A stretch of DNA of 32,000 bases from Kiritimatiella glycovorans. GTDB taxonomy: Bacteria > Verrucomicrobiota > Kiritimatiellia > Kiritimatiellales > Kiritimatiellaceae. Below the pieces are notes generated by a model that saw nothing but the letters and a program-made list of their open reading frames with translations, made no database searches and was not told the origin of the DNA. Where the stretch lies: contig NZ_CP010904.1 in NCBI RefSeq assembly GCF_001017655.1, forward strand, positions 720,001 through 752,000, in the 5' to 3' direction. A program made the translations under genes and the position numbers. Every line of letters starts with the position of its first letter. Position 1 is the stretch's first letter. Below, piece after piece: positions 5,976 to 28,115 of this stretch.

Positions 5976-6092
5976 GACCTGAGTAAGAAGAATCAGAATC
6001 AGAGTCAGAGTAAGAGGGAGTGGGAAAGCTGAAACCTGAGTAAGAAGAGTCAGAGTCAGAGTCAGAATCAGAGTAAGAGGGAGTGGAAACCC
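5941..6092. repeat. Purine-rich tandem repeat, about 2.3 units of 63-73 bp (family copy 1)
   Basis: Units span 5941-6013, 6014-6076 and a partial 6077-6092. The core is GAGGGAGTGGGAAAGCTGAAACCTGAGTAAGAAGAGTCAGAGTCAGAGTCAGAATCAGAGTAA with internal (A/G)(A/G)TCAG hexamers. The same core recurs at 12467-12580. Confidence 0.85.
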
Positions 6093-11414: not shown

Positions 11415-12484
11415 ACGCTTCAACCGCGGAACAGAAGACGCTGATCCTGGTGAGCGCCGACGTGGCGTCGATCCGCCGCCGCCTGGCGGAGGAAGAGGAC
11501 CATCCGCGCCAGGATTTCGACGTGCTGGCCGAGCGGCTGGACGCGGAGATCCTGTCCTACGCCGACCTCGGCGCGACCGCGCCGGCGTGCGCCCGGCTGC
11601 TGCGCAGGATCGCCGGGCCGAATGTCGCGCTCGCCTGGCTCGGTTTCCGCCGTAATGCGGACGCTTATTTCACAACCGCGGAGAAGGTCGGCTATCCACT
11701 GGCCCTGCTGCTCAAATTCCGTCGGGACGCGCGGCATGTCATGATCGGACACCTGCTCAGCCCGCCGCACAAGAAATGGTTCGCCCGCCTCTTCCGCATC
11801 TTCAGCCGCATCGATGCGATGATCTGTTATACGAGCCGGCAGGCGAAGTTCGCTGCGCAGGTGCTCCGGGTGCCCGAAAAGAAAATTCATCGCATCGGCT
11901 TTCAGGTCGACCAGGATTTCTACTCCCCGGACGGCGCCGACGAGGGGGTCGGCGTCCTCAGCGTGGGCCGAGAACTCCGCGATTACGAAACGCTGATCGA
12001 GGCGCTCCGGGATACGGATATCCCGCTGACCATCGTGGGCTCAAGCCCCTGGTCGAAACGGCGCGACCGCCTTCGCAACCGCCGGATGCCCGATAACGTC
12101 AGCCTGAAGCGCGGCATTTCATTCGGTGAACTCCGCGAACTGTACCGCAACTGCGCGCTGGCGGCCATCCCGCTCCAGCCGGTCGAATCGCCGGCCGGGG
12201 TGACCACGCTGCTTGAGGCCCAGGCGGTCGGCAAGCCGGTGGTGGTATCCGCATCCCCGGGCATTCTGGACAGTCTGCGCGCCGGGAGAAGCGCGGTGAT
12301 CGTACCCTGCGGGGACGCCGAAGCGATGCGCCGTGAAATCCTCGCCATTCTCGAGAACCGGGAGCGTGCGCTGCGCATCGGCGCGGAAGGCCGCTCCGAC
12401 GTGCTCGCCCGCTGTACCCTCGATCACTTCGTCGACCGGATCGGGAAGATCTTTGATGAGGCGGGGGAGGGGGAGGGAGAGTGA
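11411..12484 (+). CDS. Glycosyltransferase (GT-B, GT4-like C-terminal domain)
   Basis: The internal ATG at 11411 forms an ATGA overlap. ...PLQPVESPAGVTTLLEAQAVGKPVVVSASPGILD... looks like a GT-B nucleotide-sugar binding half. The last codons (GEGEGE) run into the repeat. Confidence 0.65.
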   Translation: MNASTAEQKTLILVSADVASIRRRLAEEEDHPRQDFDVLAERLDAEILSYADLGATAPACARLLRRIAGPNVALAWLGFRRNADAYFTTAEKVGYPLALLLKFRRDARHVMIGHLLSPPHKKWFARLFRIFSRIDAMICYTSRQAKFAAQVLRVPEKKIHRIGFQVDQDFYSPDGADEGVGVLSVGRELRDYETLIEALRDTDIPLTIVGSSPWSKRRDRLRNRRMPDNVSLKRGISFGELRELYRNCALAAIPLQPVESPAGVTTLLEAQAVGKPVVVSASPGILDSLRAGRSAVIVPCGDAEAMRREILAILENRERALRIGAEGRSDVLARCTLDHFVDRIGKIFDEAGEGEGE

Positions 12485-12580
12485 GTGGGAAGGCTGAGAC
12501 CTGAAACCTGAGTAAGAGAATCAGAATCAGAGTCAGAATAAGAGGGAGTGGGAAGGCTGAGACCTGAAACCTGAGTAATG
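12467..12580. repeat. Purine-rich tandem repeat, about 1.6 units (family copy 2)
   Basis: GAGGGAGTGGGAAGGCTGAGACCTGAAACCTGAGTAAGAGAATCAGAATCAGAGTCAGAATAA followed by a partial unit. It is near-identical in core to 5941-6092. Confidence 0.85.
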
Positions 12581-12606
12581 GAATTAAGAACCCATATCGA
12601 TCCATC

Positions 12607-15125: not shown

Positions 15126-15236
15126 TTTATGGAAAGGATGCGGGGGATGTTCCTGCCCGAAGCTTTTGGGCTACCGATTTTTATTGCGGTAGTCGATGCG
15201 GGCGCGGGTCATGCGTTCGCGGAGGCCGCCCTGCTT
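15126..15236 (-). pseudogene. Four-helix-bundle (suffix-domain type) gene, detached 3' fragment
   Basis: The minus strand reads (K)QGGLRERMTRARIDYRNKKSVAQKLRAGTSPASFP* with the stop at 15126-15128. GGLRERMTRAR is the conserved suffix segment. It abuts the IS end at 15239 and is in frame with 20383-20922 once the insert is removed. Confidence 0.75.
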
Positions 15237-15238
15237 AA

Positions 15239-15374
15239 CCCGTCTTTCCCCGTTCGGCGGCCCAAACGTCTTTTTTCGGGGGTGTGACCTCCGTTTCGTC
15301 CTTTGTTTTCAAGGGGTCACGTTCCAAAAGGGGCTGTGGGGCAGACCTTGCCGGTTGACGACTTGATTTTCTGT
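15239..15374 (+). mobile_element. Truncated left end of an IS1634-family copy
   Basis: Base-for-base identical to the left end of the intact copy (18401-18536). Identity stops exactly where the IS4-family inverted repeat begins. Confidence 0.85.
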
Positions 15375-16855
15375 CAGTAGCATCCCATAAGGCCCCATAT
15401 CGGGGCACAGGACTTACGTAACCCCTTGCCCTGCAAGGGTCGCACTTTTTCTCCGAGCTATGTTTCATTTGATAATTTTCGCGATCAAGGATGCCCCTGT
15501 TTTTAAATGCGCCCGATGCTGTCCCACATCTCAGAGAGGGGACAACCCTAATCCGGGCAAATAGGCTTGTTGTGGGGCCCATTGCATCCGGAAGCTGCCC
15601 TGTGCTGTCCCATAGGATTTCAAATAAGCGAGCAGATGAAGCCGTTGCCACAGAACCGCGCGCAGGCAGGTAAACAACCGCGTAAAGCTGTGCGCCCAAT
15701 CGCTGCAGGTATGCAGAAAGCGGAGCAACACGTACATCAGCAGCGCCGTCCAGAGCTGCCACTCAATCGCCTTGCGGTTGTGCCCGAGGAAGTCGCCCAG
15801 GTGCAGCGTCTGCTTGATCTGTTTGAAGAAGGTTTCGATGTTCCATCGCGCCTTGTACAGATCACAGATGCTCGAGGCCGCCCACTCGAAGTTGTTCGTA
15901 AAGAAGGTCATTATCCGATCCTCGCCGTTGATCTCGATGCGGGCCACGATCCGGCGCATGCGCTTCGGATAGTCCTTTCGCTTACCGGGATTCTGAACGA
16001 GCACGAGATCGTCACGCAGGATGCGCCCCGCGGGCTTCTTCACCAGCCGCTTCACGCAGCGCAAGTTCATGCTTTCTTTCACGCGGCTCACCCAGAAGAT
16101 ACCCCGCTCGGCCAGTCTGAACAGATGCGTATAGTCGATGTAGGCCATGTCAAACACGGCGATTTCACCCGCCTTGAGGCCTGCGCACAACTCGTGCGCC
16201 TTGGTGCTGTCGTGCCCCCTGGCCGAGTCGACAATCGCGAAGGCCGGCAGGAAGCTCTCCAGGTTCAGCCGCAGGTGCAGCTTCGCGGCCGCCTTGCGCC
16301 GCCGATGCTTCGCCCAGTCCATGCAGTTGGCGAACAGCTTGATCGTCGTGGAGTCCAGGGCATACACCGTTCGTTTGAAGCGCCTCGGCAGTCGGCGGAA
16401 CTTCACGCCACCGAACCCCGGTCGCAACGTCTCGAAGTACTCGAGCACCGACCAGAAAAGCTCCTCGGCCATTTTCGGATCGCGGGTCTTGTTCGCGTGC
16501 GAGAGCCCGTTGCGGCTCGGTGGCTTGGCGCCACGGATGCTGGCCATCGGCGCCCGATGGGCGCGCAGCGCGTCCACCACGTCGTTCAGCCCGATCGCAT
16601 GGGTGAACTGCGCATAGAGCATGCTCACCAGATGGCTCCAGGGCGTGATGCCCCTCGACTTGATCCCGTGCTTGCGCGCAAGTTTCGGCACAAGGTGCGG
16701 CGGAATGAGTTCACAGACCTGACGAAAAATGGCACGCTTACTCCCGGCTCGACTGGCTGGCATCACGCAATCTCCTTTGGGTTAGACACTGAAGAAGATT
16801 GTAGCCAGTCAGTCAGCCATTACAATTTCCGTCCCTCGTGAGTGGGATGCTAGTG
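15375..16855 (-). mobile_element. IS4-family insertion sequence (about 1.48 kb)
   Basis: Terminal inverted repeats CAGTAGCATCCCA (15375-) and TGGGATGCTAGTG (-16855) bracket a single DDE transposase gene. I could not find a clean target duplication. Confidence 0.8.
15531..16766 (-). CDS. IS4-family DDE transposase (DUF4372-type N-terminus)
   Basis: N-terminus FRQVCELIPPHLVPKLARKHG...TPWSHLVSMLYAQ. DDE context VYALDSTTIKL / IAVFDMAYIDY / YKARWNIETFFKQIKQ (Y-R-E-K motif). Confidence 0.9.
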   Translation of the reverse strand: MMPASRAGSKRAIFRQVCELIPPHLVPKLARKHGIKSRGITPWSHLVSMLYAQFTHAIGLNDVVDALRAHRAPMASIRGAKPPSRNGLSHANKTRDPKMAEELFWSVLEYFETLRPGFGGVKFRRLPRRFKRTVYALDSTTIKLFANCMDWAKHRRRKAAAKLHLRLNLESFLPAFAIVDSARGHDSTKAHELCAGLKAGEIAVFDMAYIDYTHLFRLAERGIFWVSRVKESMNLRCVKRLVKKPAGRILRDDLVLVQNPGKRKDYPKRMRRIVARIEINGEDRIMTFFTNNFEWAASSICDLYKARWNIETFFKQIKQTLHLGDFLGHNRKAIEWQLWTALLMYVLLRFLHTCSDWAHSFTRLFTCLRAVLWQRLHLLAYLKSYGTAQGSFRMQWAPQQAYLPGLGLSPL

Positions 16856-16865
16856 ATTTTTGTTC

Positions 16866-16893
16866 TTGAACGGATTGAGTTTTCTGATAGTTT
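16866..16893 (+). promoter_or_regulatory. Candidate sigma70-like promoter for the PEP-CTERM gene
   Basis: TTGAAC, then 16 nt, then TAGTTT, starting 11 bp beyond the IS4 end and about 55 bp upstream of the ATG at 16949. GGAGGA is the RBS. Confidence 0.25.
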
Positions 16894-16948
16894 CGTGCGA
16901 GTGGATGAGAGGGAGACGGAATAGCGATTCATTACGGAGGAGAATCGG

Positions 16949-17851
16949 ATGAGAAAATTATGTATGGCCTTGGCGGCAGTTCTCGTGGGTACGCTGGTTG
17001 CCGATGCGCAGACGGAATGGTGGTTTGAGAATGATTTTGCGGCCGGTTACGGTCGGCTCGAAAACGGCTGGAACTGGACCAACAACGCGAACCCGTACCT
17101 GAGCAGCAACCGGGTGGGGATTCTGACCGGCAACGAACCCAACATGGCCGGTACGAACTACTGGACCCCGAAGGCGCTCGATGATTTCTGGATCGAGCAG
17201 CGTGGAGGTACGCTGATGGATTACGGCGAGGATCTCTCCATCCGTAAAGACACCGTCTACACGCTGAACGACACCGGCAATGACGGGTCGTATACGAACA
17301 TCATCGTCCGCGACTATAAGCTCAATCTCTGGACGTGGGGTGGTACAAACCTGTTGAATCTTTACGCGGGAAACGTGTACGCCGACAAGACCTTCGGCAA
17401 CGCTTCGGACACACAGCTCACGCTCAGTAATGCTGTGGTCAACATTATGAGCAACAATATCAACGCCAACTGCGGGCTCACCCTGCTCTCCGGGGGGACC
17501 GGGGTGTGGCATCAGGTTCGCGCAAAATCCATCCCGACCATGGCGTTCGAAGATCCGGACGGGGATCCGACGATCGGCGACAATCACTTCATGGGTTCGA
17601 TCGTGTGGGAGACGAACGGTGCGAGTGCGATGACTCCGGCGGTCTGGAAATACTATCTCGGAAACGGGATCACGTACGACGGCAAGGCGATGCAGACCAC
17701 CAATGCTTCGCAGGACGATTATTATGCGAATTACTTTGTAATTTCGGACGACAATACGACGTTGACGGTGATTCCGGAGCCGACCACGTTCGGTCTGCTC
17801 GGATTTATCGGCCTTACACTTGCGGCCCTCCGCCGTAAACTGCACAGGTAG
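16949..17851 (+). CDS. PEP-CTERM sorting-domain secreted protein
   Basis: Signal peptide MRKLCMALAAVLVGTLVADA. The C-terminus VIPEPTTFGLLGFIGLTLAALRRKLHR gives PEP, a TM helix and a basic tail. GC content is visibly lower than in the flanking loci. Confidence 0.85.
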   Translation: MRKLCMALAAVLVGTLVADAQTEWWFENDFAAGYGRLENGWNWTNNANPYLSSNRVGILTGNEPNMAGTNYWTPKALDDFWIEQRGGTLMDYGEDLSIRKDTVYTLNDTGNDGSYTNIIVRDYKLNLWTWGGTNLLNLYAGNVYADKTFGNASDTQLTLSNAVVNIMSNNINANCGLTLLSGGTGVWHQVRAKSIPTMAFEDPDGDPTIGDNHFMGSIVWETNGASAMTPAVWKYYLGNGITYDGKAMQTTNASQDDYYANYFVISDDNTTLTVIPEPTTFGLLGFIGLTLAALRRKLHR

Positions 17852-17879
17852 TTTCGTCTGGTCTTACGATTCAGCATGA

Positions 17880-17913
17880 CCCCGCCGGTTTTTTTTCCCG
17901 GCGGGGTTTTTTT
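17880..17913 (+). terminator. Rho-independent terminator
   Basis: CCCCGCCGG, a 9-nt T-rich loop, CCGGCGGGG, then TTTTTTT, 29 nt after the PEP-CTERM stop. Confidence 0.75.
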
Positions 17914-17977
17914 GGGTCCGTGCATTGTGGAGGGACGGGGTGGAGGGTCGGCTTCCACGCCGACCGCAAAAAAGGAC

Positions 17978-18152
17978 GGGGTGGAACCCGTCCCTCCAAT
18001 GGATCTGGCCGCAGCTATACGTCCCCGCCGGGAAGACCACCTCCCCGCCACCCTGTTGCGCGCAGATGTCGATCTGCCTTCTGAATCGACGCCGTATCCA
18101 TCGTCTTTCCGTCACCCGTTGCCCCGAAATCGCGTACATTGAACAGGCCCAT
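17978..18152 (-). pseudogene. GH28 / pectate-lyase-fold glycosidase, N-terminal remnant with a frameshift
   Basis: The minus strand reads MGLFNVRDFGATGDGKTMDTASIQKA, then shifts frame by one nucleotide near 18074 to IDICAQQGGGEVVFPAGTYSCGQI. This is the typical GH28/Pectate_lyase_3 N-terminus. The rest of the gene is absent. Confidence 0.65.
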
Positions 18153-18187
18153 GTCATCCTCCTTATGAGCAGAACCTATCAGAGCCT

Positions 18188-18235
18188 TTGGGTAGGGCGC
18201 GATCTCCGAGCGCGCCGCTCTTCCGGACGGTTCTG
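18188..18235 (+). repeat. REP-like palindromic element, copy 1
   Basis: TTGGGTAGGGCGCGATCTCCGAGCGCGCCGCTCTTCCGGACGGTTCTG with stem GGCGCG/CGCGCC. Positions 18191-18235 match the reverse complement of 24171-24215 at 40/45. Confidence 0.7.
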
Positions 18236-18286
18236 CTGGACAGCAGAACCCCTGCCTTCCTTCATACGTGAATTCGTCCTGTGCTC

Positions 18287-18322
18287 TTGGGTAGGGCGCG
18301 ATCTCCGAGCGCGCCGCTCTTC
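18287..18322 (+). repeat. REP-like palindromic element, copy 2
   Basis: A 36-bp exact repeat of 18188-18223, 99 bp downstream in direct orientation. Confidence 0.7.
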
Positions 18323-18400
18323 TGCTTACCATGCGGGAACAATATTCGCCTCAAACAGGAATGCGCGTGGCACTTGGATTTCGTATGGTATCGGTTCTAA

Positions 18401-20380
18401 CCCGTCTTTCCCCGTTCGGCGGCCCAAACGTCTTTTTTCGGGGGTGTGACCTCCGTTTCGTCCTTTGTTTTCAAGGGGTCACGTTCCAAAAGGGGCTGTG
18501 GGGCAGACCTTGCCGGTTGACGACTTGATTTTCTGTGAAAAAATCGGGTTGTGTATTTGAAGTGCCACAGGCGACGCAAAGACGGCAAAGAGCACCGCTA
18601 CTGGAGCATCGTTGAAAGTGTGCGGACCCGGCGCGGCGTCATGAAGCGTCCGCTGCTCTATCTGGGCGAACTCAACGACAGCCAGAAGGCTCAATGGTGC
18701 TCGGCACTCGACGTGCTGGATGAATCGACCGATTCGGTTCGACAGATAAGCCTGTTCCCGGAAGACCGCACGCCGCCGCCGGAGGTGTCCCATCCCGTTC
18801 GGATCCGGCTTTCCCGGCTGAGCTTGCATCATCCGCGTCAGTGGGGCGGATGCTGGCTGGCCATGGAGTTGTGGAACGAGCTGGATCTGGACCGTTTCTG
18901 GAGCCCCCGTCTTCCCGCGAGCCGCAAGGGCACCGGCTGGCTCCACGTGCTCAAAACGCTGGTGACCTATCGTCTGCTCGATCCGGGCAGCGAGTGGCGG
19001 CTGCACCGCGACTGGTTTAAGGCCAGTGCCATGGCGGACCTGCTCGGCGAAGATGAGTCCATCGCGGCCAAAAACACGCTCTACCGCTGTCTCGATAAAC
19101 TCGGTGAACACAAAGCCGATCTGTTTTCGTTTCTAAAGACACAGTGGCGCCTGTTGTTCGACGCTTCCTACGAGGTGCTGCTTTATGACCTGACCAGCAC
19201 CTATTTTGAATGCGACGTGCCCGAACGCGAAGGGCTGCGCAAGTTCGGCTACAGTCGGGACAAGCGATCCGACTGCGTGCAGGTGGTCATTGCGCTGATC
19301 GTCACGCCCGAGGGCTTTCCGGTCGCCTACGAGGTGATGCCCGGGAACACCTCGGATAAAACGACCCTGCCGGACTTCCTGCGCAGGATCGAGGCGCAGT
19401 ACGGGAAGATGAACCGGCTCTGGATCATGGACCGGGGCATCCCGACCGAGGACGCGCTCGAACAGATGCGAGCAGAAGGCGCGAGCTATCTGGTGGGCAC
19501 GCCGCGCGGGCGGCTCAGCAAGCTCGAGGACCAGCTCTTCGGTCAACCGTGGAGGCAGGTGCAGGAGCAGATCGAGGTCAAGCTGGCCCGCGACGGGGAG
19601 GATCTTTACGTCCTCACCCGCAGCGGAAGTCGCTGCGATAAAGAGCGCTCCATGCGACAGCGCAAACTCAAGAAGCTCTGGAAGCGCCTGCATCAACTGG
19701 GGGGCATGAAAAACCTCAAGCGCGACGAACTTTTGCTGAAACTGGGTGCCGCCAAACAGGAAGCGGGCAAAGCCTGGGGTCTGGTGGACCTCCGCCTTCC
19801 CCAACCCCGCGAGGCCGTTACGCCGGAGAGCTTTCACTTCCGGCTGAACCGCAAAAAACTGCGTAAAGCCCGTCGAGGTGAAGGCACCTACCTGTTGCGC
19901 ACCAATCTGGCGGCCGAACAGCCCGAAGAGCTGTGGAAGCAATACATGGTCCTGAACGAGGTCGAGCAGGCCTTCAAGGAGCTGAAGAATGATCTGGATA
20001 TCCGCCCGGTGTATCACCAGAAGGATGAGCGGATCGAAGCGCACATCTTCGTGTCATTTTTGAGCTACGCTCTGCAAGTCACGCTGAAACAGCGGGCCAA
20101 AGCCAGGGCCCCGGGCTTGACCCCCCGCGCCATCCTGGAAAAGTTCAAAGCCGTGCAGATGATCGATGTGCACCTGCCCACGACCGACGGGCGCACCCTG
20201 ATCCTGCCGCGCTACACGCAACCGGAGAAAGACCTTCAGCTTCTGCTGCACCAGCTCAACCTGACGCTTCCGGAACAACCACCCCCTCGGCTTGAAGAGC
20301 TGAAGAAAAAATGTGGGGCAGACCTTTGAACTGAAATCGAAGAAAAAAGGCGTTTTCGCCGCCGAACAGGGAAAGACGGG
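18401..20380 (+). mobile_element. Intact IS1634-family insertion sequence (1980 bp)
   Basis: IRL is CCCGTCTTTCCCCGTTCGGCGGCCCAAACGTCTTTTTTCG. IRR, reverse-complemented, is CCCGTCTTTCCCTGTTCGGCGGCGAAAACGCCTTTTTTCT. It carries a single long transposase ORF. Confidence 0.85.
18551..20329 (+). CDS. IS1634-family (IS4 superfamily) DDE transposase
   Basis: GTG start. MYLKCHRRRKDGKEHRYWSIVESVRTRRG...LYLGEL is the hallmark N-terminus. DDE context LLYDLTSTYFE / WIMDRGIPTE / EVEQAFKELKNDL. Confidence 0.9.
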   Translation: MYLKCHRRRKDGKEHRYWSIVESVRTRRGVMKRPLLYLGELNDSQKAQWCSALDVLDESTDSVRQISLFPEDRTPPPEVSHPVRIRLSRLSLHHPRQWGGCWLAMELWNELDLDRFWSPRLPASRKGTGWLHVLKTLVTYRLLDPGSEWRLHRDWFKASAMADLLGEDESIAAKNTLYRCLDKLGEHKADLFSFLKTQWRLLFDASYEVLLYDLTSTYFECDVPEREGLRKFGYSRDKRSDCVQVVIALIVTPEGFPVAYEVMPGNTSDKTTLPDFLRRIEAQYGKMNRLWIMDRGIPTEDALEQMRAEGASYLVGTPRGRLSKLEDQLFGQPWRQVQEQIEVKLARDGEDLYVLTRSGSRCDKERSMRQRKLKKLWKRLHQLGGMKNLKRDELLLKLGAAKQEAGKAWGLVDLRLPQPREAVTPESFHFRLNRKKLRKARRGEGTYLLRTNLAAEQPEELWKQYMVLNEVEQAFKELKNDLDIRPVYHQKDERIEAHIFVSFLSYALQVTLKQRAKARAPGLTPRAILEKFKAVQMIDVHLPTTDGRTLILPRYTQPEKDLQLLLHQLNLTLPEQPPPRLEELKKKCGADL

Positions 20381-20382
20381 TT

Positions 20383-20922
20383 AACGAAGTCTTGCTCAAG
20401 GCGGCGGAGCTGCTGGTCAACCAGATAGTTGGTTTGATGAATAAGGCAGATGGCAATGTTGGCGACGGTTTCCGGCGGGCGGGTTTCGACAAATTCCCGG
20501 TAGAGTTCAAAGGTCTGCGGCTCTTGTCGTCCTAAATTGCGGACGAAGAGCGCCTCTTTACTGTTCGGCTCCCAGATGGTCAGGTCGCGGACGCGGAGAA
20601 AGTCGAGGTAGTCGTCGAGCAGTTCTTCGAGGCTGGCGCGCGCGACGTTGGTGAGTTTGATTTCCGTTTCCTTGGAGGTGAGGGCGGCTTTGCTGCCTTC
20701 GAGAATGTTTTTCTTTCCGGATCGGGCCGACTGAATCATCTGGTCAACGGTCCGGTCGCCGCGCGACAGGTATTTATGCGCGAAGCGAAAGGTAATGTCG
20801 TAGACGACTTCCGCTTTCTGGAATGAGAGCAGGGTTTGGTAGTCGCCACTTGGCGGGAGCACGGGATGAGAGTCATGGGAGCCATGAGATTCATGCGACT
20901 CATTCTTCTCATTCGTTCTCAT
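20383..20922 (-). pseudogene. Four-helix-bundle (23S rRNA IVS / Avd-like, suffix-domain type) gene, 5' part disrupted by IS insertion
   Basis: YQTLLSFQKAEVVYDITFRFAHKYL...QMIQSARSGKKNILEGS...LEELLDDYLDFLR...CLIHQTNYLVDQQLRRLEQDFV. After V180 the ORF-track reading continues into the IS end (NPSFPVRRRKRLFS). Confidence 0.8.
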
Positions 20923-21171: not shown

Positions 21172-22137
21172 TCATCCCGAATCACGGATGACCAGTTTGC
21201 CGGGGAAAAGGATCTCCTCCGGATCGGCGGGCGTCATGAGCGATTCGAAAACGCGCCCGGCCATGGCGTCCACGTCCTGGCGGACGGTGGTCAGCGCAGG
21301 AATAAACTTTGCCGCGAAGGGGATGTCGTCGAACCCCGTGACCGCGACTTCACCCGGCACGTCGATCCCGCGCTCGTGCAGGGCCTTGAGCGCGCCCATG
21401 GCCATGCGATCCGTCGCGCAGACCAGCGCATCGGCCCTCGCTCCCGAGCCCGGCCACCGGCGCGCGGATTCGTATCCGGCCTCGAAGCCGCCGGACGATT
21501 GAGGCGCCGCGGCTGTGAATCCGAGTCCCGCGTCACGGGCGGCGTCGCGCAGCTTGCGTTCGCGCAGCCGGTGCGCGGGCAGTTTCTGAGAGAGAAATCG
21601 CAGTCGCCGCCGGTCGTGTGCGGCGAGATGATCGATCAGCTTTTCCGCCGCGTCCTCTTCGTCCGTAGTCAGCCGCACGCTGCGCTCCTCTGAAGGACCG
21701 TGCCCCACACGCACCACCGGCAGCTGCGTGAACGACTCCAGCCACGGTGCCCCGGCGTCGGATCCCACGATGATCAGCGCGTCGATCGCGTGCTTGTGCA
21801 GCGGCCGCAGATCCCGTTCGTCCGGAACCCGGTTGACAAATCCGGCCAGCACCAGCGAGTACTCATGCCTGTGGGCCTGCTCCTGGATCCGATGAATCAT
21901 CATCCCGAAAAAGGGGTCGTTGAAGTCGTAGACCGCCACGCCGACCGTCCGGGTCGCCTTGCCCTTCAGCGATAACGCCGCCGCGTTCGGCACATACCCC
22001 AGCCGCTCCGCCGTCTCCAGCACACGCTGCTGCGTCGCCGCCGCAATGCCGATCTCGTCCGCCGTGCCCGAAAGCACGCGCGAGACCAGCGCCACCGAGA
22101 CGCCCAGCCGCTCCGCAATGTTCCGCTGACTCACCAT
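21172..22137 (-). CDS. LacI-family transcriptional regulator
   Basis: Starting at the ATG at 22137 gives MVSQRNIAERLGVSVALVSRVLSG (HTH) followed by a periplasmic-binding-fold sugar-binding domain. It is divergent from the uronate operon. Confidence 0.85.
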   Translation of the reverse strand: MVSQRNIAERLGVSVALVSRVLSGTADEIGIAAATQQRVLETAERLGYVPNAAALSLKGKATRTVGVAVYDFNDPFFGMMIHRIQEQAHRHEYSLVLAGFVNRVPDERDLRPLHKHAIDALIIVGSDAGAPWLESFTQLPVVRVGHGPSEERSVRLTTDEEDAAEKLIDHLAAHDRRRLRFLSQKLPAHRLRERKLRDAARDAGLGFTAAAPQSSGGFEAGYESARRWPGSGARADALVCATDRMAMGALKALHERGIDVPGEVAVTGFDDIPFAAKFIPALTTVRQDVDAMAGRVFESLMTPADPEEILFPGKLVIRDSG

Positions 22138-22301
22138 AATAAGAGGGCAGTATGACGGGGAATCGGCCACGAAAACAAGCAGGACATGAAGCTGACCCCT
22201 CTTCATGCCCTTGCCGTATTTGTGATGAATCAGATCTTGCCGGTCCCGAAGAAACACTCTATATTCTCAAACCATTGAGTAAAGCTGAGGGAGCCTGATG
22301 T

Positions 22302-23117
22302 ATGAACGATTATTTTGATCTCGGCGGCCGGGTGGTCGCGGTCACGGGGGCGGCGGGCGTGCTGGCGGGCGGTACGGCGCGCTATCTCCAGCAGCGGGGG
22401 GCGACGGCGGTCTACCTCGATCTGGAGGGGGAGCGCCTGGACGCGGCGCTGGAACAGGCGAAGGGCATTTCCGATAAGTGCGCGGCGTTTCCGTGTGATG
22501 TGCTCGACCGCGACCGGCTGGCGCAGGTGCGCGACGAGGTAAAGCGCACATTCGGCCGCGTGGATGCCCTGATCAACGGCGCGGGCGGCAATATGGCCGG
22601 GGCGACGATCGGTCCGGAGCAGGAGGTGTTCGATCTGGAGGTCGAGGCCTACGACAGGGTGCTCGATCTGAACCTGAAGGGCACGGTTCTGCCGACGCTG
22701 GCGTTCGCGGAGGCGTTCCGGGAACAGCGCGCGGGGTGCGTGGTCAATTTTTCGTCCATGGCCGCCGGGCGGGCGCTGACCCGCGTGCTGGGGTACTCCA
22801 ACGCCAAGGCGGCGGTGGAGAACTTCACGCGCTGGATGGCGACCGAGCTGGCGCAAAAGTACGGCGACGGTCTGCGCGTCAATGCCGTCGCGCCGGGATT
22901 CTTTATCGGCGAACAGAACCGGAGGCTCCTTACGAACGAGGACGGATCCTACACGGAGCGCGGCCGGCAGGTGATCGATCAGACGCCGTTCGGCCGTTTC
23001 GGTGAGGCGCACGAGGTCTACGGTACGGTCCATTACCTGCTTTCCGACGCGGCGTCGTTCGTAACCGGCGCGGTGATCCCCATCGACGGCGGGTTTTCAG
23101 CCTACAGCGGAGTGTGA
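22302..23117 (+). CDS. SDR-family oxidoreductase, D-mannonate/fructuronate oxidoreductase-like (short-chain UxuB type)
   Basis: VTGAAGVLAG, NGAGGNMAGATIGPEQ, SSMAA...YSNAKAA, APGFFIGEQNRRLLTNEDGS.TERG, and a C-terminal IDGGFSAYSGV tail typical of the Bacteroidota/PVC UxuB-type SDRs. Confidence 0.75.
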   Translation: MNDYFDLGGRVVAVTGAAGVLAGGTARYLQQRGATAVYLDLEGERLDAALEQAKGISDKCAAFPCDVLDRDRLAQVRDEVKRTFGRVDALINGAGGNMAGATIGPEQEVFDLEVEAYDRVLDLNLKGTVLPTLAFAEAFREQRAGCVVNFSSMAAGRALTRVLGYSNAKAAVENFTRWMATELAQKYGDGLRVNAVAPGFFIGEQNRRLLTNEDGSYTERGRQVIDQTPFGRFGEAHEVYGTVHYLLSDAASFVTGAVIPIDGGFSAYSGV

Positions 23118-23120
23118 ATC

Positions 23121-24155
23121 ATGACGGATCATCAATGGGAACTTTTATGCCGGATCGTTGCGGGGGAGGCGGTCGAGACGCCTCCGGTCGGATTCATCAT
23201 CGACAGCCCGTGGCTGCCGGGCTGGCACGGGGTGAGCACCCTCTCGTACTACGCCTCCGACCGCGCCTGGCTGGAGGCCAACCTGAATGCGGTCGAGTCC
23301 TTCCCGGAGGTGATGTTCATCCCGGGGTTCTGGTCGGAGTTCGGGATGTGTACCGAACCCTCGGCGTTCGGTGCAAAATGCAGCTGGGAGACCGATGCGC
23401 TGCCGCACGCCCACCGCGTGATTACCGAGGCGGCCCGGGCGGGCGAGATCGCCAAGCCCGATGTGCGCCGGGACGGGCTGCTGCCTTTCGTGATCGAACG
23501 GCTCGCCGGCGCACAGCCGGCCATGCGCGAGGCCGGCCATGAAATCCGCTTCGCCGTATCCCGTGGCCCGCTCAATATCGCCTCGTTCCTGATGGGGACC
23601 ACCGAGTTTCTGCTCGCGCTCTACACCGAGCGCGAGGCGTGCGAGGCGCTGCTGAAGACCATTACCGATTTTGTCGTCGACTGGATCGGATATCAGAAGG
23701 AGCGGTTCGATACGATCGATGCCGTGCTCGTGCTCGACGACATCGTGGGGTTTGTGGGCGAGGAGGATTACCTTCAGTTCGCCCATCCTTACCTGGAGCG
23801 GATCTTCCAGTCGTTCCCGTTCAGTGTGAAGGCCTTTCACAATGATGCCAAAGGGCTGGTGTGCGCCCCGCATCTCTCCGGGGCCGGCATCAACCTGTTC
23901 AATTTCGCCTTTGAACACGGGTTGGATGAAATGCGCGCGTTGTGCGGGGAAGAGGTGACGTTGTGGGGTAACCTGCCGCCGCGCGATACCCTGGCCGCGC
24001 AGTCCCCGGACGAAGTGCGCGCCGCAGCGGCCGACATGGTGCGCGGCTGTACCGATCCCCGCCGCGTGCTGTTTTCGTGCGGCGGCGGCATGCCGCCCGA
24101 CGTCCGCAGCGAACAGCTGCGCGCGTTCGTGGAAGGGTGCAGACAGGAAGGGTAG
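23121..24155 (+). CDS. Uroporphyrinogen decarboxylase (URO-D/MtaA-like) family protein, function unknown
   Basis: The length, and motifs such as IDSPWLPGW, FWSEFGMCTEPSAFG, LDDIVGFV and FSCGGGMPP, fit the URO-D TIM-barrel family. It sits 3 nt after the SDR gene. Confidence 0.7.
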   Translation: MTDHQWELLCRIVAGEAVETPPVGFIIDSPWLPGWHGVSTLSYYASDRAWLEANLNAVESFPEVMFIPGFWSEFGMCTEPSAFGAKCSWETDALPHAHRVITEAARAGEIAKPDVRRDGLLPFVIERLAGAQPAMREAGHEIRFAVSRGPLNIASFLMGTTEFLLALYTEREACEALLKTITDFVVDWIGYQKERFDTIDAVLVLDDIVGFVGEEDYLQFAHPYLERIFQSFPFSVKAFHNDAKGLVCAPHLSGAGINLFNFAFEHGLDEMRALCGEEVTLWGNLPPRDTLAAQSPDEVRAAAADMVRGCTDPRRVLFSCGGGMPPDVRSEQLRAFVEGCRQEG

Positions 24156-24170
24156 GGATTCCAACGTACG

Positions 24171-24215
24171 TCAGGACCGTCCGGAACAGCGGCGCACTCG
24201 GGGATCGCGCCCTGC
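24171..24215 (-). repeat. REP-like palindromic element, copy 3 (inverted orientation, intra-operon)
   Basis: The reverse complement GGCAGGGCGCGATCCCCGAGTGCGCCGCTGTTCCGGACGGTCCTG matches 18191-18235 at 40/45. Confidence 0.65.
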
Positions 24216-24261
24216 CGGAACCCAAAGAAGGAATGCAGACGCGAAAGGGAGAGGCCGAACC

Positions 24262-25335
24262 ATGACCGAGAAGGCACAGAAGACATACGCGCTGGTCGTG
24301 CCGACCAGCATGGGGCTGCGACTGACCCCGGACGACGCGCAGCCGTTCCACAGCAGCGATCGGTTCCACATGCACGCGACCAGCGCGGAGAGCAATGTGG
24401 CCAGCGTGGTTTCCTATCTCGGGCTCCCGGTCAAGGTGCTGACCGCGTTCGTCAGCGGGAGCCCCGTCTCGCACTTTATACAAACCAACCTGCGCAGCCG
24501 GGGGATGGCGATCGAAGGCCCCGGGTTCGAGCAGGGCGGACCGTGGGGGCTGCGCCACCAGATCAACATGGCCGACCGCGGGTGGGGCTCGCGGGGACCG
24601 CGGGTGCACAACGACCGCGCCGGCGAGGTCGCGCGCGGATTGCGGCCGGAGGACTTCGACCTGAACCGGATTTTCGGTCAGGAGGGCGCGCGGATCGTCC
24701 ATCTCTCGGGCCTGATCGCGGCGCTCTCTCCGGAGACCGGCCGGCTGTGTCTGGAGATCGCCCGGGTGGCGCGGGAACACGGATCGCTGATCTCGTTTGA
24801 TCTGAATCACCGCGCGAGCTTCTGGAAGGGACGCGAGCGCGAACTCGCGGAGGTGTTTGCCGGAATCGCCGCGAACAGCGATATCCTGGTCGGCAACGAA
24901 GAGGACTTCCAGCTCTGTCTCGGGATCGAGGGTCCGGAGTCCGGCGGAAAGGGGCTGGAGGCGAAGATCGACGACTTCAAGGAGATGATCGGCCGCGTGC
25001 AGTCCGCGTATCCCGGCGCCTCGCGGTTCGCGACCACGCTGCGGGAAGTACACTCCGCCAACCGCCACCTGTGGGGCGCCCTGGCCGTACAGGACGGCGA
25101 GTGGGAGGTCATCCGCCCGCGTGAGATCGGAGTGCTGGACCGGATCGGCGGCGGCGACGGCTTTGTCGGCGGGCTGCTGTACGGTACACTCAAAGAGTGG
25201 GATATCCACCGCTGCGCGCAGTTCGGATGGGCCTGCGGCGCGCTGGCGGCGACGCTGCGAACCGACTACGCCCAGCCGGTCAGCGAGGAGCAGGTCTGGG
25301 GCATCTGGGAAGGCAATGCGCGGGTCAGGCGCTAG
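24262..25335 (+). CDS. kdgK: PfkB-family sugar kinase, 2-dehydro-3-deoxygluconokinase-like
   Basis: DRIGGGDGFVGGLLYG is the PfkB signature 2. The overall layout is like the long KdgK type. Substrate is inferred from context only. Confidence 0.7.
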   Translation: MTEKAQKTYALVVPTSMGLRLTPDDAQPFHSSDRFHMHATSAESNVASVVSYLGLPVKVLTAFVSGSPVSHFIQTNLRSRGMAIEGPGFEQGGPWGLRHQINMADRGWGSRGPRVHNDRAGEVARGLRPEDFDLNRIFGQEGARIVHLSGLIAALSPETGRLCLEIARVAREHGSLISFDLNHRASFWKGRERELAEVFAGIAANSDILVGNEEDFQLCLGIEGPESGGKGLEAKIDDFKEMIGRVQSAYPGASRFATTLREVHSANRHLWGALAVQDGEWEVIRPREIGVLDRIGGGDGFVGGLLYGTLKEWDIHRCAQFGWACGALAATLRTDYAQPVSEEQVWGIWEGNARVRR

Positions 25336-25362
25336 GTTTTTATCATAAACGGAGGAACGACG

Positions 25363-26811
25363 ATGAACGCGGATATCGGACTGATCGGTCTGGCGGTGAT
25401 GGGAGAGAACCTGGTGCTCAACATGGAGAGCAAAGGGTTCAGCGTGGCGGTCTACAATCGTACGACCGAGAAGGTCGACCGCTTTGTCGGCGGACGCGGC
25501 GCGGGCAAAAACATCACCGGCTGCCATTCGATCGAGGAACTGTGCGCCGCGCTGGAGCGCCCGCGCAAAGTGATGATGCTCGTCAAGGCGGGCGGGGCCG
25601 TCGACGCTCTCATCGAAAAGCTGATGCCGCACCTTGAAGAGGGCGACATCATCATCGACGGCGGCAACTCGCACTTTCCCGACACCATCCGCCGCACGGA
25701 AACCGTCGAGAGCCGCGGTCTGCTCTACATCGGTACCGGCGTCTCCGGCGGCGAGGAGGGCGCCCTGAAAGGGCCGTCCATCATGCCCGGCGGATCGCCG
25801 GCGGCGTGGGAACACGTCAGGCCGATCTTTCAGAAGATCGCCGCGCAGACCGCCGACGGCGAGCCGTGCTGCGACTGGGTCGGCGAAGGCGGCGCGGGGC
25901 ATTTCGTCAAGATGGTCCACAACGGGATCGAGTACGGCGACATGCAGATGATCTGCGAGACGTACCAGATGATGAAGGCGGGCCTCGGGATGTCGAACGA
26001 AGAGATGCACGAGGTCTTCGGCCAGTGGAACCAGGGCGAACTCGACAGCTATCTCATCGAGATCACCCGCGACATCCTCGGCTATAAGACCGAAGACGGC
26101 GAGGCCGTCATCGACTCGATCCTCGACACGGCCGGGCAGAAGGGGACCGGCAAGTGGACGGCGCAGGCGGCCCTCGACCTCGGCCAGCCGCTCACGCTGA
26201 TCGGCGAGGCCGTGTTCGCCCGCTGCCTGTCGGCGCTCAAGGACGAACGCGTGGCCGCGTCGAAGGAGCTGTCCGGACCGGACGGGAACTTCGAGGGCGA
26301 TCGCGAGGCGATGATCGAGGATCTGCGCCAGGCGCTGTACGCGTCGAAGATCGCCTCCTACGCCCAGGGCTACCAGCTGATGCGCGCTGCGGCGGCGGAG
26401 TACGGCTGGAATCTGAACTACGGCGGCATCGCGCTGATGTGGCGCGGGGGGTGCATCATCCGCTCCGTCTTCCTCGGAAAGATCAAGGAGGCCTTCGACC
26501 ACGACCCCGAGCTGGTGAACCTGCTGCTCGACCCGTTCTTCCAGTCGGCCGTGGACCAGGCCCAGGCGGGCTGGCGGCGGGTGGTGAGCCGGGCGGTCGA
26601 GCTGGGGATCCCGATGCCGGCCATCAGTTCCGCGCTCGCGTTCTACGACGGATACCGCAGTGCGCGGCTTCCGGCGAACCTGCTGCAGGCTCAGCGCGAT
26701 TACTTCGGGGCGCACACCTACGAACGGGTCGACCGGCCGCGCGGCGAGTTTTTCCACACCAACTGGACCGGCCGCGGCGGCGATACGGCGGCCTCCACCT
26801 ACAGCGTATAA
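25363..26811 (+). CDS. gnd: 6-phosphogluconate dehydrogenase, decarboxylating
   Basis: MNADIGLIGLAVMGENLVLNMESKGF...VSGGEEGAL.GPSIMPGG...HFVKMVHNGIEYGDMQ...LLQAQRDYFGAHTYER are textbook Gnd motifs. Confidence 0.9.
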   Translation: MNADIGLIGLAVMGENLVLNMESKGFSVAVYNRTTEKVDRFVGGRGAGKNITGCHSIEELCAALERPRKVMMLVKAGGAVDALIEKLMPHLEEGDIIIDGGNSHFPDTIRRTETVESRGLLYIGTGVSGGEEGALKGPSIMPGGSPAAWEHVRPIFQKIAAQTADGEPCCDWVGEGGAGHFVKMVHNGIEYGDMQMICETYQMMKAGLGMSNEEMHEVFGQWNQGELDSYLIEITRDILGYKTEDGEAVIDSILDTAGQKGTGKWTAQAALDLGQPLTLIGEAVFARCLSALKDERVAASKELSGPDGNFEGDREAMIEDLRQALYASKIASYAQGYQLMRAAAAEYGWNLNYGGIALMWRGGCIIRSVFLGKIKEAFDHDPELVNLLLDPFFQSAVDQAQAGWRRVVSRAVELGIPMPAISSALAFYDGYRSARLPANLLQAQRDYFGAHTYERVDRPRGEFFHTNWTGRGGDTAASTYSV

Positions 26812-26822
26812 GGACATCGGGT

Positions 26823-28115
26823 ATGCCGTGGTTTATTCGTAAAGATGAGTCGATCGCCCGCACGGAGATCGAGCAGTTGTGTCAGCGCACGCTCGACGAG
26901 GCGCGCGACCGTCTGGGGTGTTCGTTCAGACGGGTGCTGCTGCTGCCGCCGGATATCACCCGCGCCCACTGCGGCGCGGGCTGGATCGCTGAAACCTTCG
27001 ACCGGCTGCTGCCGGATAGCTGTGAGGTTCACATGATTCCCACCCTGGGACAGCATGTGCCGCATACGAAGGCCGACAACCGGTGGATGTTCGGGGATTT
27101 CCCGGAGGAGCGGATTCATGCCCACGACTGGCGCAACGGGGTCACCCGGATGGGGACCATCCCCGCCGCGCGCGTGGCGGAGAGCACCGACGGAAAGGCC
27201 GACTGGGAGATCCCGGTCGATCTCAACACCATGACGGTCGAGGGCGGGTGGGACCTGATCATCAACATCGGCCACGTCGTCCCGCATGAAGTGCTCGGGT
27301 TTGCGAACCACAACAAAAACTATTTCATCGGGCTCGGCGGCAAGGAAACCATTTGTGCGTCTCACCTCGCCGCGGGCGTGTACGGAATCGAGAACAACCT
27401 CGGCCGGCTCATCACGCCGCTGCGGGCCTGCTACAACTGGGCGGAAGAACAGTTTCTGGGGCATTGGCCGCACGTCTACATGATGGTGACCATGAAGCGT
27501 GACGAACAGAATCGGCTGGTGCACAGCGGCGTCTATGTCGGGGACGACGTCGACACCTACCTGGCGGCGGCCGAAACCAGCCTCGAGCAGAACATCACCG
27601 TTTTTGAACGACCGGTGAAAAAGATCGTGGCGGTCATGCAGGCCGATGAATTCCGCGCCACCTGGGTGGCGAATAAAGCCGTATACCGTACCCGCATGGC
27701 GATGGCCGACGGAGGGGAGCTGCTGATTATCGCGCCCGGGGTCGAGCGCTTCGGCGAGCAGAAGGAGGTCGACGCCCTCATTCGCACCTACGGCTACTGC
27801 GGGTCGCCTCAGGTGCTGGATCTCTACAAAAAGAAACGGGACCTCCAGGACCTGGCTCACGGCGCGGCGCACCTGATGCACGGGTCGTCCGAAGGACGGT
27901 TTACCATCCGCTACGCCCCGGGCGGCCTGAGTCGCGAAGAGGTCGAAGGCGTTCATTACGAATACGCCGACCCCCGGGAGGCCCTGGCGCGCTACAATCC
28001 GGAGACCATGCAGGAGGGCTGGAACACGATGCCGGACGGCGAAGAGGTCTTTTTCATCAGCACGCCCTCCGCGGGGTTGTGGTCCGTGAAGGAGAAAGTT
28101 GGAGGCGGCCGATGA
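26823..28115 (+). CDS. LarA-like (DUF2088) nickel-pincer-cofactor-type 2-hydroxyacid racemase/epimerase homolog
   Basis: The ATG at 26823 lies 9 nt after the gnd stop. PTLGQHVPHT and NIGHVVPHEVLGFANHNKNYFIGLGGKETICASH align by eye with the LarA His/His/Lys/His catalytic and cofactor residues. The ORF-track start at 26154 is an out-of-frame overlap with gnd. Confidence 0.7.
   Translation: MPWFIRKDESIARTEIEQLCQRTLDEARDRLGCSFRRVLLLPPDITRAHCGAGWIAETFDRLLPDSCEVHMIPTLGQHVPHTKADNRWMFGDFPEERIHAHDWRNGVTRMGTIPAARVAESTDGKADWEIPVDLNTMTVEGGWDLIINIGHVVPHEVLGFANHNKNYFIGLGGKETICASHLAAGVYGIENNLGRLITPLRACYNWAEEQFLGHWPHVYMMVTMKRDEQNRLVHSGVYVGDDVDTYLAAAETSLEQNITVFERPVKKIVAVMQADEFRATWVANKAVYRTRMAMADGGELLIIAPGVERFGEQKEVDALIRTYGYCGSPQVLDLYKKKRDLQDLAHGAAHLMHGSSEGRFTIRYAPGGLSREEVEGVHYEYADPREALARYNPETMQEGWNTMPDGEEVFFISTPSAGLWSVKEKVGGGR

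What the first reader, a model, noticed from the sequence alone, without database searches (positions are those of the whole stretch)
15126..20922. A TTAA-flanked, IS1634-bounded 5.1 kb composite element splits a four-helix-bundle gene and carries a PEP-CTERM protein gene
Seen in sequence: the minus-strand four-helix-bundle ORF stops making sense after ...LEQDFV (20383), where it enters an IS inverted repeat. Its missing tail, (K)QGGLRERMTRARIDYRNKK...*, lies 5.1 kb away at 15236-15126. Deleting 15239-20384 (the insert plus one TTAA) rejoins the two halves in frame, gac ttc gtt aag cag ggc ggc, giving a 216-aa protein. The insert starts with an IRL and ends with the matching IRR of an IS1634-family element. 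Only the right copy (18401-20380) is intact. The left copy is reduced to 136 bp that are identical to the intact copy's left end. Between them lie an IS4-family element, a PEP-CTERM gene with its own RBS and terminator, a GH28 remnant and REP hairpins. Inference: this was a composite transposon made of two direct IS1634 copies around cargo. The outer IRL/IRR pair and one transposase gene are still present, so it may still move as a unit. PEP-CTERM substrates as transposon cargo are not something I know to be described. The inner copy's left flank is CTAA rather than TTAA, so the inner copy alone does not show the same duplication.
Basis: partly seen in the sequence, partly recalled or inferred. 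Interest (0 to 1): 0.72.

Follow-up and report, generated by a model that had tools for sequence, protein, structure and literature searches.

The report
IS-bounded insert splitting a small gene
A 5.1-kb block of DNA bounded by the two ends of an IS1634-family insertion sequence has landed in, and inactivated, a small conserved gene of Kiritimatiella glycovorans, bringing along a second insertion sequence and one surface-protein gene; this is an ordinary kind of event in a genome full of transposases.

Summary
The window is the Kiritimatiella glycovorans L21-Fru-AB chromosome.

- **Element:** a 5,142-bp segment (15239-20380) starts with an IS1634-family left end and ends with the matching right end. 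It is flanked by TTAA on both sides.
- **Gene repair:** removing the segment plus one TTAA restores a four-helix-bundle-suffix gene. The restored gene is colinear with intact homologues. Its suffix-domain match rises from profile positions 1-31 (45.8 bits) to 1-49 of 49 (84.6 bits).
- **Corrections:** the restored protein is 201 aa, not 216, and its stop is at 15171-15173, not 15126. The 'GH28' remnant is only a generic pectin-lyase-fold N-terminus. The 'REP' label is unproven.
- **TTAA versus CTAA:** relatives of this IS duplicate a 4-bp YTAR target, so TTAA and the inner CTAA are both normal.
- **Left copy:** it is cut after 136 bp, exactly at the tip of an IS4-family element that has no target duplication.
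- **Mechanism:** compound transposition on the outer ends is the simplest reading. A simple IS insertion followed by homologous recombination would give the same structure, and I could not tell them apart because the rest of the genome was unreachable.
- **Novelty:** an IS1634-family compound transposon (Tn6097) is already proven experimentally. The cargo is a lineage-restricted orphan gene.

This is a new member of a known kind, of low interest.

The parts
15171..15238 (-). 3' fragment of the four-helix-bundle-suffix gene (last 22 codons, KQGGLRERMTRARIDYRNKNR plus stop at 15171-15173); ends in the left TTAA
   Evidence: completes the TIGR04258 match to 49/49 positions
15235..15238 (.). left copy of the 4-bp target-site duplication TTAA
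   Evidence: only one TTAA is needed to restore the reading frame and the conserved Lys codon
15239..15374 (+). 136-bp left-end stub of the IS1634-family element (terminal inverted repeat plus the -35 box of the presumed transposase promoter), 100% identical to 18401-18536
15375..16855 (-). IS4-family element, 1,481 bp, CA...TG termini, 13-14-nt inverted repeats, transposase 15531-16766; no flanking target duplication (ATTTTCTGT versus ATTTTTGTT)
   Evidence: (pair I21)
16949..17851 (+). cargo gene: 300-aa secreted protein with a C-terminal PEP-CTERM sorting signal (VIPEPTTFGLLGFIGLTLAALRRKLHR); lineage-restricted orphan with one 62% paralogue in the same genome
17878..17915 (+). intrinsic terminator of the cargo gene (11-bp G+C stem followed by a T run)
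   Evidence: -30.5 kcal/mol, z = -4.2
17928..17998 (.). long, near-perfect hairpin that cuts off the glycosidase-like remnant
   Evidence: -45.1 kcal/mol, z = -4.6
17987..18152 (-). about 55 codons of the N-terminus of a pectin-lyase-fold protein (GH28-like or epimerase-like), with one frameshift near 18075; a pseudogene fragment
18188..18322 (.). two identical 36-nt repeats (18188-18223 and 18287-18322) upstream of the remnant; REP status not shown
18397..18400 (.). CTAA next to the inner left end; probably the surviving half of the right copy's own original target duplication
   Evidence: CTAA is a common target in the clade
18401..20380 (+). full IS1634-family element, 1,980 bp; transposase 18551-20329 (592 aa); promoter-like TTGACG-16-AAAAAT at 18517-18544; right inverted repeat 20358-20380
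20381..20384 (.). right copy of the TTAA target-site duplication
20385..20922 (-). 5' part (179 codons) of the four-helix-bundle-suffix gene; the open frame runs on into the IS to 20236, which gives the annotated 228-aa product P0001

Best explanation
This is a compound-transposon-like unit of an IS1634-family insertion sequence. The proposed history has four steps.
1. At a donor site in the K. glycovorans lineage, two direct copies of the IS bracketed a short stretch of chromosome. That stretch held a PEP-CTERM gene with its terminator, and the start and upstream region of a decayed pectin-lyase-fold gene.
2. The right copy had inserted at a CTAA.
3. The transposase then acted on the left end of the left copy and the right end of the right copy. 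It pasted the whole block into a TTAA inside the four-helix-bundle-suffix gene and duplicated that TTAA.
4. Either before or after that move, an IS4-family element sat at position 136/137 of the left copy, and a deletion next to it removed the rest of that copy.

The result is a gene cut 22 codons before its end, which now reads 49 codons into the IS. The 5,142-bp unit keeps one working-looking transposase gene and a usable pair of outer ends.

Shown: the anatomy, the exact single-site insertion, the 4-bp duplication and the family assignments. Inferred: the order of events, that the transposase rather than recombination placed the cargo, and that the unit can still move.
For: - The gene is restored exactly on removing 15239-20384, with no indel against 10 intact homologues, and the domain score nearly doubles.
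- The outer left end is identical to the inner one over 136 bp and pairs with the right end.
- In relatives, 48 of about 64 complete elements carry matching 4-bp flanks of the form YTAR. The two closest relatives (86% and 82% transposase identity) both carry TTAA/TTAA.
- The inner CTAA fits a leftover half of an earlier duplication.
- The transposase is full length against relatives of 582-596 aa, and D213, D294 and E496 are invariant.
- The left-copy stub ends exactly at the IS4 terminus, and the IS4 element has no target duplication. That indicates a rearrangement at this joint.
- IS1634-family elements have been shown to move compound transposons: Tn6097, whose DRs are the same length as those of a single ISPfe2 (PMC3281130).
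- The genome carries 75 transposase genes and was closed from 265x PacBio reads of a >10-kb library, with an Illumina check (PMC5148204).
Against: - No second copy of the unit, no donor scar and no empty site was found. The organism's own genome could not be searched, and two metagenome scans found nothing.
- The same final structure arises without compound transposition if a lone IS inserted first and the cargo came in by homologous recombination.
- The left copy may never have been full length at this site.
- Clusters of direct copies in relatives (L028, L076) mostly carry their own matched duplications, so they give no example of compound movement in this clade.
Confidence: 0.5

Rival explanations
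1. A simple insertion came first and the cargo arrived by homologous recombination. One IS copy inserted at the TTAA of the gene and made the duplication. Then one of two things happened. (a) A circle holding one IS plus cargo, excised by recombination between two direct copies elsewhere, integrated into the resident IS by RecA. (b) An IS4 element hopped into the resident IS at nt 136/137, and a double crossover or gene conversion with a donor locus IS4'-cargo-CTAA-IS1634 copied the cargo in.
For: - It gives exactly the observed order, the outer TTAA pair and the inner CTAA.
- Variant (b) explains the missing IS4 target duplication without a separate deletion.
- The genome is IS-rich, so homology partners are plentiful.
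- About a quarter of related elements have unmatched flanks. That is what recombination between copies, or decay, would produce.
Against: - It needs a donor locus with the same two IS types in the same order and orientation, or two successive recombination steps.
- It takes no fewer events than compound transposition.
- No donor locus could be inspected.
Confidence: 0.35
2. A larger chromosomal rearrangement produced the structure. Unequal crossover between two direct IS1634 copies duplicated a long segment. A large deletion beside the IS4 element then removed everything between nt 136 of the first copy and the IS4.
For: - It accounts for a hybrid inner copy (CTAA on the left, TTAA on the right) and for the IS4 joint without a duplication.
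- A glycosidase-like remnant next to a uronate-catabolism cluster (LacI, SDR, PfkB, UxaC at 21-30 kb) hints that the cargo could be of nearby origin.
Against: - It needs a duplication plus a precisely placed large deletion.
- The window shows no other trace of a duplicated segment.
Confidence: 0.1
3. The structure is an assembly artefact. The 139-bp and 2-kb repeats led the assembler to thread two separate loci into one.
For: Repeat graphs can in principle yield this path, and I could not inspect reads.
Against: - The chromosome was closed as one contig by HGAP from 265x PacBio RSII reads of a >10-kb library, with Illumina mapping as a check.
- Reads of that length span the whole 5.1-kb unit.
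Confidence: 0.03

Closest known systems
Tn6097, the compound transposon bordered by two copies of ISPfe2 (IS1634 family) in Paracoccus ferrooxidans (PMC3281130)
   Same: IS1634-family elements bracket unrelated chromosomal genes. The whole unit is flanked by a target duplication of the same length as a single IS makes.
   Different: - Tn6097 has two intact, convergent copies, a 14-kb core and 6-bp duplications, and its movement was captured on trap plasmids.
- Here the copies are direct, one is a 136-bp stub, the core is about 3 kb (half of it another IS), the duplication is 4 bp, and movement is only inferred.
IS1634 family as defined by De Palmenaer et al. 2008 (PMC2266710)
   Same: - Single large DDE transposase.
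- Length of 1,980 bp lies within the 1,500-2,000 bp range.
- Ends fit the family consensus C-----YT (CCCGTCTT).
- The target is AT-rich.
   Different: - The family is listed with 5-6-bp duplications, and IS1634 and IS1549 themselves with 8-514 bp.
- This element and about 50 relatives make 4-bp YTAR duplications.
- The nearest named plasmid-borne family members are at most 35% identical.
Classical compound transposons (Tn5/IS50, Tn10/IS10), IS26 pseudo-compound transposons, and 'transporter IS' elements (named from my own knowledge)
   Same: Passenger genes travel between IS ends. Only the outer ends and one transposase source are needed. Direct-repeat copies can also gain or lose the cargo by recombination, as in IS26 units.
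   Different: - The cargo has no selectable marker.
- One flank is reduced to a bare end.
- The transposase chemistry of this family has not been studied.

Membership tests
IS1634 family insertion sequence | transposase matches the family model above its curated cut-off | tested here: met
   NF033559 scores 310.2 bits against a cut-off of 100, covering residues 82-566
IS1634 family insertion sequence | length 1,500-2,000 bp with terminal inverted repeats starting C-----YT | tested here: met
   1,980 bp; ends CCCGTCTT...; 22 of 23 terminal bases complementary (consensus from PMC2266710)
IS1634 family insertion sequence | target duplication of 5-6 bp, AT-rich | tested here: not met
   The duplication is 4 bp (TTAA), proved by the gene repair. 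Relatives make 4-bp YTAR duplications. It is AT-rich but shorter than listed.
Compound (composite) transposon | two copies of the same IS flank the cargo | tested here: inconclusive
   One full copy and one 136-bp left-end stub are present. Whether the stub was ever full length here is unknown.
Compound (composite) transposon | a correct pair of outer ends, and one target duplication around the whole unit | tested here: met
   Left end at 15239, right end at 20380, TTAA on both sides, and the gene restored on removal
Compound (composite) transposon | the unit moves as a whole (second copy elsewhere, or capture in an assay) | not testable with these tools
   The organism's own genome was not retrievable, and there was no match in metagenome contigs.
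Four-helix-bundle suffix-domain protein (TIGR04258 with TIGR02436) | full-length match to the 49-residue suffix domain after a four-helix-bundle core | tested here: met
   The rejoined protein matches 1-49/49 at 84.6 bits. The ORF as it stands matches only 1-31/49 at 45.8 bits.
PEP-CTERM protein (exosortase substrate) | N-terminal signal peptide and a C-terminal Pro-Glu-Pro motif, membrane helix and basic cluster | tested here: met
   TIGR02595 scores 16.7 bits against a cut-off of 16, which is marginal. The motif VIPEP...RRKLHR is conserved in the paralogue.
PEP-CTERM protein (exosortase substrate) | an exosortase encoded in the same genome | not testable with these tools
   None is in the window. 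The upstream EPS locus has Wza, Wzz and Wzy_C types but no exosortase hit.
IS4 family insertion sequence (inner element) | transposase model match, terminal inverted repeats, and a target duplication of 8-13 bp | tested here: not met
   The transposase (NF033592, 231.7 bits) and the 13-14-nt repeats are present. No duplication flanks it (6 of 9 bases, T-rich), so at least one flank has been rearranged.
GH28 glycoside hydrolase (remnant) | specific match to GH28 rather than to the general pectin-lyase fold | tested here: inconclusive
   PF12708 N-terminal motif only (24.9 bits, below its cut-off of 27). The best solved relatives are mannuronan epimerase, a GH28 exo-polygalacturonase and a pectate lyase, at similar E-values.

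The most novel reading that the evidence does not exclude
The 5,142-bp unit is a still-active, transposase-driven vehicle. Only a bare 136-bp IS end plus one full IS would be needed to shuttle a lineage-specific exosortase substrate gene around Kiritimatiellota genomes. The IS would belong to a previously unrecognised TTAA/YTAR-specific, 4-bp-duplicating branch of the IS1634 family.
Probability: 0.15. Interest if true: 0.35.

Novelty: new member of a known kind. Interest (0 to 1): 0.2.

Why it matters
- **Annotation:** the 228-aa 'four helix bundle suffix domain-containing protein' of K. glycovorans is a disrupted gene fused to IS sequence.
- **Genome plasticity:** it gives a clean, fully resolved example of IS-driven change in a genome already noted for 75 transposase genes.
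- **IS biology:** it documents a widespread IS1634-family clade that duplicates 4-bp YTAR sites.
- **Limits:** it opens no new mechanism. The cargo's function is unknown, and there is no sign that carrying a PEP-CTERM gene is anything more than chance capture.

Tried and rejected
- **Fetching other copies from the same genome.** Exact-protein look-ups for the transposase, P0001 and P0122 found nothing. The genome-collection scan returned only other species. The organism's own genome appears to be withheld.
- **Empty site and IS end in metagenomes.** The empty site GACTTCGTTAAGCAGGGCGGC and the IS end CCCGTCTTTCCCCGTTCGGCGG had no match in metagenome contigs.
- **Reading the 139-bp repeat as a long IS1634-type target duplication around an inserted 3-kb piece.** Rejected. 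The repeat starts exactly at the IS terminus, and the piece does not end in an IS4 end.
- **Reading TTAA as part of the IS ends.** Rejected. The frame and the conserved Lys codon need exactly one TTAA, and non-palindromic flanks such as CTAA/CTAA and GTAG/GTAG in relatives show a true 4-bp duplication.
- **A parent gene for the glycosidase-like remnant.** Only three weak fragments were found.
- **Function of the cargo.** The AlphaFold model is unusable (pLDDT 28.9). A profile search of 1.84 billion representatives found only a fragment and a few weak hits. The paralogue's similarity to flocculation protein PepA is far below cut-off (33 bits against 80) and absent for the cargo itself.
- **Relatives of the IS4 element, and copies of the cargo DNA, among fetched loci.** The only IS4 matches were one distant relative at 31% identity in L067 and a 52-residue fragment in L030. 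The cargo DNA matched nothing.
- **Rfam scan of the window.** No match.
- **Solo IS ends near relatives, as precedents for compound movement.** No clear case.
Full report
**Source of the window.** The interrupted ORF and the cargo protein are 100% identical to proteins of Kiritimatiella glycovorans on a 2,949,723-bp contig (P0001, P0121). The window is therefore part of the closed chromosome CP010904 of strain L21-Fru-AB. That genome was assembled into one contig by HGAP from 265x PacBio RSII reads of a >10-kb library and checked with Illumina reads. Its authors noted 75 transposase genes (PMC5148204).

- The 23-nt IS end CCCGTCTTTCCCCGTTCGGCGGC occurs at 15239 (+), at 18401 (+) and, with one mismatch, at 20358-20380 (-). 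Chance expectation is 0.01.
- The first 136 bp of the element are identical at 15239-15374 and 18401-18536.
- The copy at 18401-20380 is 1,980 bp. It encodes a 592-aa protein that scores 310 bits on the NCBIfam IS1634 transposase model, cut-off 100.
- That protein is colinear over its whole length with relatives of 582-596 aa and has D213, D294 and E496 invariant.
- TTAA lies immediately outside 15239 and 20380.

**The gene repair is exact, with two corrections.**
- Removing 15239-20384 gives an open frame of 201 aa, not 216. It ends ...LEQDFVKQGGLRERMTRARIDYRNKNR* with its stop at 15171-15173, not 15126.
- This protein matches the 49-residue four-helix-bundle suffix domain TIGR04258 end to end at 84.6 bits.
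- The ORF as it stands, annotated as a 228-aa protein, matches only positions 1-31 at 45.8 bits. An intact homologue scores 87.2 bits.
- Against 10 intact homologues of 79-89% identity there is no gap or extra residue at the junction.
- The frame and the conserved Lys codon require exactly one TTAA. TTAA is therefore a true 4-bp target duplication and the two gene pieces are one gene.

**The CTAA 'discrepancy' is normal for this clade.**
- A scan of one genome per species returned 79 loci with relatives of the transposase at 59-86% identity.
- Locating their ends showed the same termini, CCCG[A/T]CTT...AAG[A/T]CGGG. In 48 of about 64 complete elements the 4-bp flanks match.
- The flanks are CTAG > TTAG ~ CTAA > TTAA, including non-palindromic pairs such as CTAA/CTAA and GTAG/GTAG.
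- The two closest relatives (86% and 82%) both have TTAA/TTAA. Cross-species conservation begins and ends exactly at the inferred termini.
- The clade therefore duplicates a 4-bp YTAR site. The inner CTAA at 18397-18400 is most simply the surviving half of the right copy's own earlier duplication.
- The published family description lists 5-6-bp AT-rich duplications and the end consensus C-----YT (PMC2266710). The end consensus is met and the duplication length is not.

**Contents of the unit.**
- The left stub stops at 15374, exactly where an IS4-family element begins. That element spans 15375-16855 (1,481 bp), has CA...TG ends and 13-14-nt inverted repeats, and carries a 411-aa transposase scoring 231.7 bits on NF033592.
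- The IS4 element has no target duplication: its flanks are ATTTTCTGT and ATTTTTGTT. The sequence to its right is not the continuation of the IS1634 element. One flank has therefore been replaced by deletion or recombination.
- The IS4 joint falls between the -35 and -10 boxes of the promoter-like site upstream of the IS1634 transposase gene.
- The cargo proper is 16856-18400. It holds a 300-aa PEP-CTERM protein gene with a GGAGGAG ribosome-binding site and a strong terminator.
- It also holds a 71-nt hairpin, and about 55 codons of a frameshifted pectin-lyase-fold N-terminus that cannot be assigned specifically to GH28.
- Two identical 36-nt repeats complete the cargo. Their REP status is unproven.
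- The PEP-CTERM protein is an orphan. It has one 62% paralogue in the same genome and, among 1.84 billion representatives, only a fragment and a few weak hits. Its structure could not be predicted.

**Surroundings.** Upstream lies an exopolysaccharide locus with Wza-like, Wzz and Wzy_C proteins, glycosyltransferases and acetyltransferases. Downstream lie a LacI regulator and uronate or sugar-acid genes: SDR, PfkB kinase, 6PGD and UxaC. Homologues of the interrupted gene sit in unrelated contexts elsewhere, so synteny gives no independent empty site.

**Mechanism.**
- The simplest history is compound transposition. Two direct IS copies bracketed the cargo at a donor site, and the transposase used the outer left end and the right end to paste the block into the TTAA of the gene. 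An IS4-linked deletion trimmed the left copy before or after the move.
- The identical structure also arises if a lone IS inserted first and the cargo entered by homologous recombination. This could be integration of an IS-plus-cargo circle. It could also be a double crossover with a donor locus IS4'-cargo-CTAA-IS1634, after an IS4 had hopped into the resident IS. The second variant explains the missing IS4 duplication without a deletion.
- The two routes need a similar number of events. Only the rest of the genome can separate them, and I could not reach it.
- My estimates are about 0.5 for compound transposition, 0.35 for recombination, 0.1 for a larger duplication-plus-deletion history and 0.03 for misassembly.
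- Whether the unit can still move is untested. All the needed parts are present.

**Verdict.** Its interpretation is the leading hypothesis but not the only one. The novelty claim is weak. This is a new member of a known kind, an IS-bounded compound unit disrupting a gene in an IS-rich genome. Interest is low (0.2).

Noticed in passing
window 20385-20922 and 15171-15238; loci L080-L083: The four-helix-bundle-suffix family is unusually conserved. More than 100 proteins from Kiritimatiellia, Lentisphaerae and Deltaproteobacteria MAGs are 76-90% identical. Third codon positions are only about 50% identical, which points to strong purifying selection rather than recent transfer. Genomic context is not conserved: the gene lies between hsdM and hsdS in L080, and between saccharopine dehydrogenase and an Orn/DAP decarboxylase in L081-L083. 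Its function is unknown, and K. glycovorans carries this copy in disrupted form.
   Followed up: partly
window 5949-6080 and 12478-12584: Purine-rich repeat units of about 63 nt fill two intergenic gaps of the upstream exopolysaccharide locus. They have the form GAGTGGGAARGCTGARACCTGARACCTGAGTAAGA...CAGAATCAGAGTCAGA. There is no Rfam match.
   Followed up: no
loci L001-L079: A widespread clade of IS1634-family elements of about 2.0 kb occurs in Kiritimatiellales, Verrucomicrobiota, Proteobacteria, Acidobacteriota and others, with up to 7 or more copies in closed MAG chromosomes. It makes 4-bp YTAR target duplications rather than the 5-6 bp listed for the family. The nearest named plasmid-borne relatives are at most 35% identical.
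   Followed up: partly
L028 2897-18886; L076 9851-14616: Related IS copies cluster in direct orientation: three within 16 kb in OY761822.1 and two 740 bp apart in L076. Most of these copies (two of three in L028, one of two in L076) carry their own matched duplication, so these arrays have the potential to act as compound units but give no evidence of doing so.
   Followed up: no
window 20236-20922 (-): The public annotation names the 228-aa product a 'four helix bundle suffix domain-containing protein'. Its last 49 residues are read-through into the IS right end, so it should be flagged as a disrupted gene.
   Followed up: yes
window 17987-18152 versus 21172-29563: A pectin-lyase-fold (possibly polygalacturonase) remnant inside the cargo lies about 3 kb from a LacI-regulated uronate-catabolism cluster (SDR, PfkB, UxaC). 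This may be coincidence in a saccharolytic genome, or a hint that the cargo came from nearby.
   Followed up: no
window 15355-15383: The -35 box kept in the 136-bp IS stub forms a promoter-like hybrid, TTGACG-17-TAGCAT, with the IS4 terminus. It points into the IS4 element, antisense to its transposase gene. This is a consensus match only.
   Followed up: no
P0122 (paralogue elsewhere in the K. glycovorans genome): The 62% paralogue of the cargo protein shows a full-length but far sub-threshold similarity to the flocculation-associated PEP-CTERM protein PepA (33 bits, cut-off 80). The cargo protein itself shows none.
   Followed up: partly
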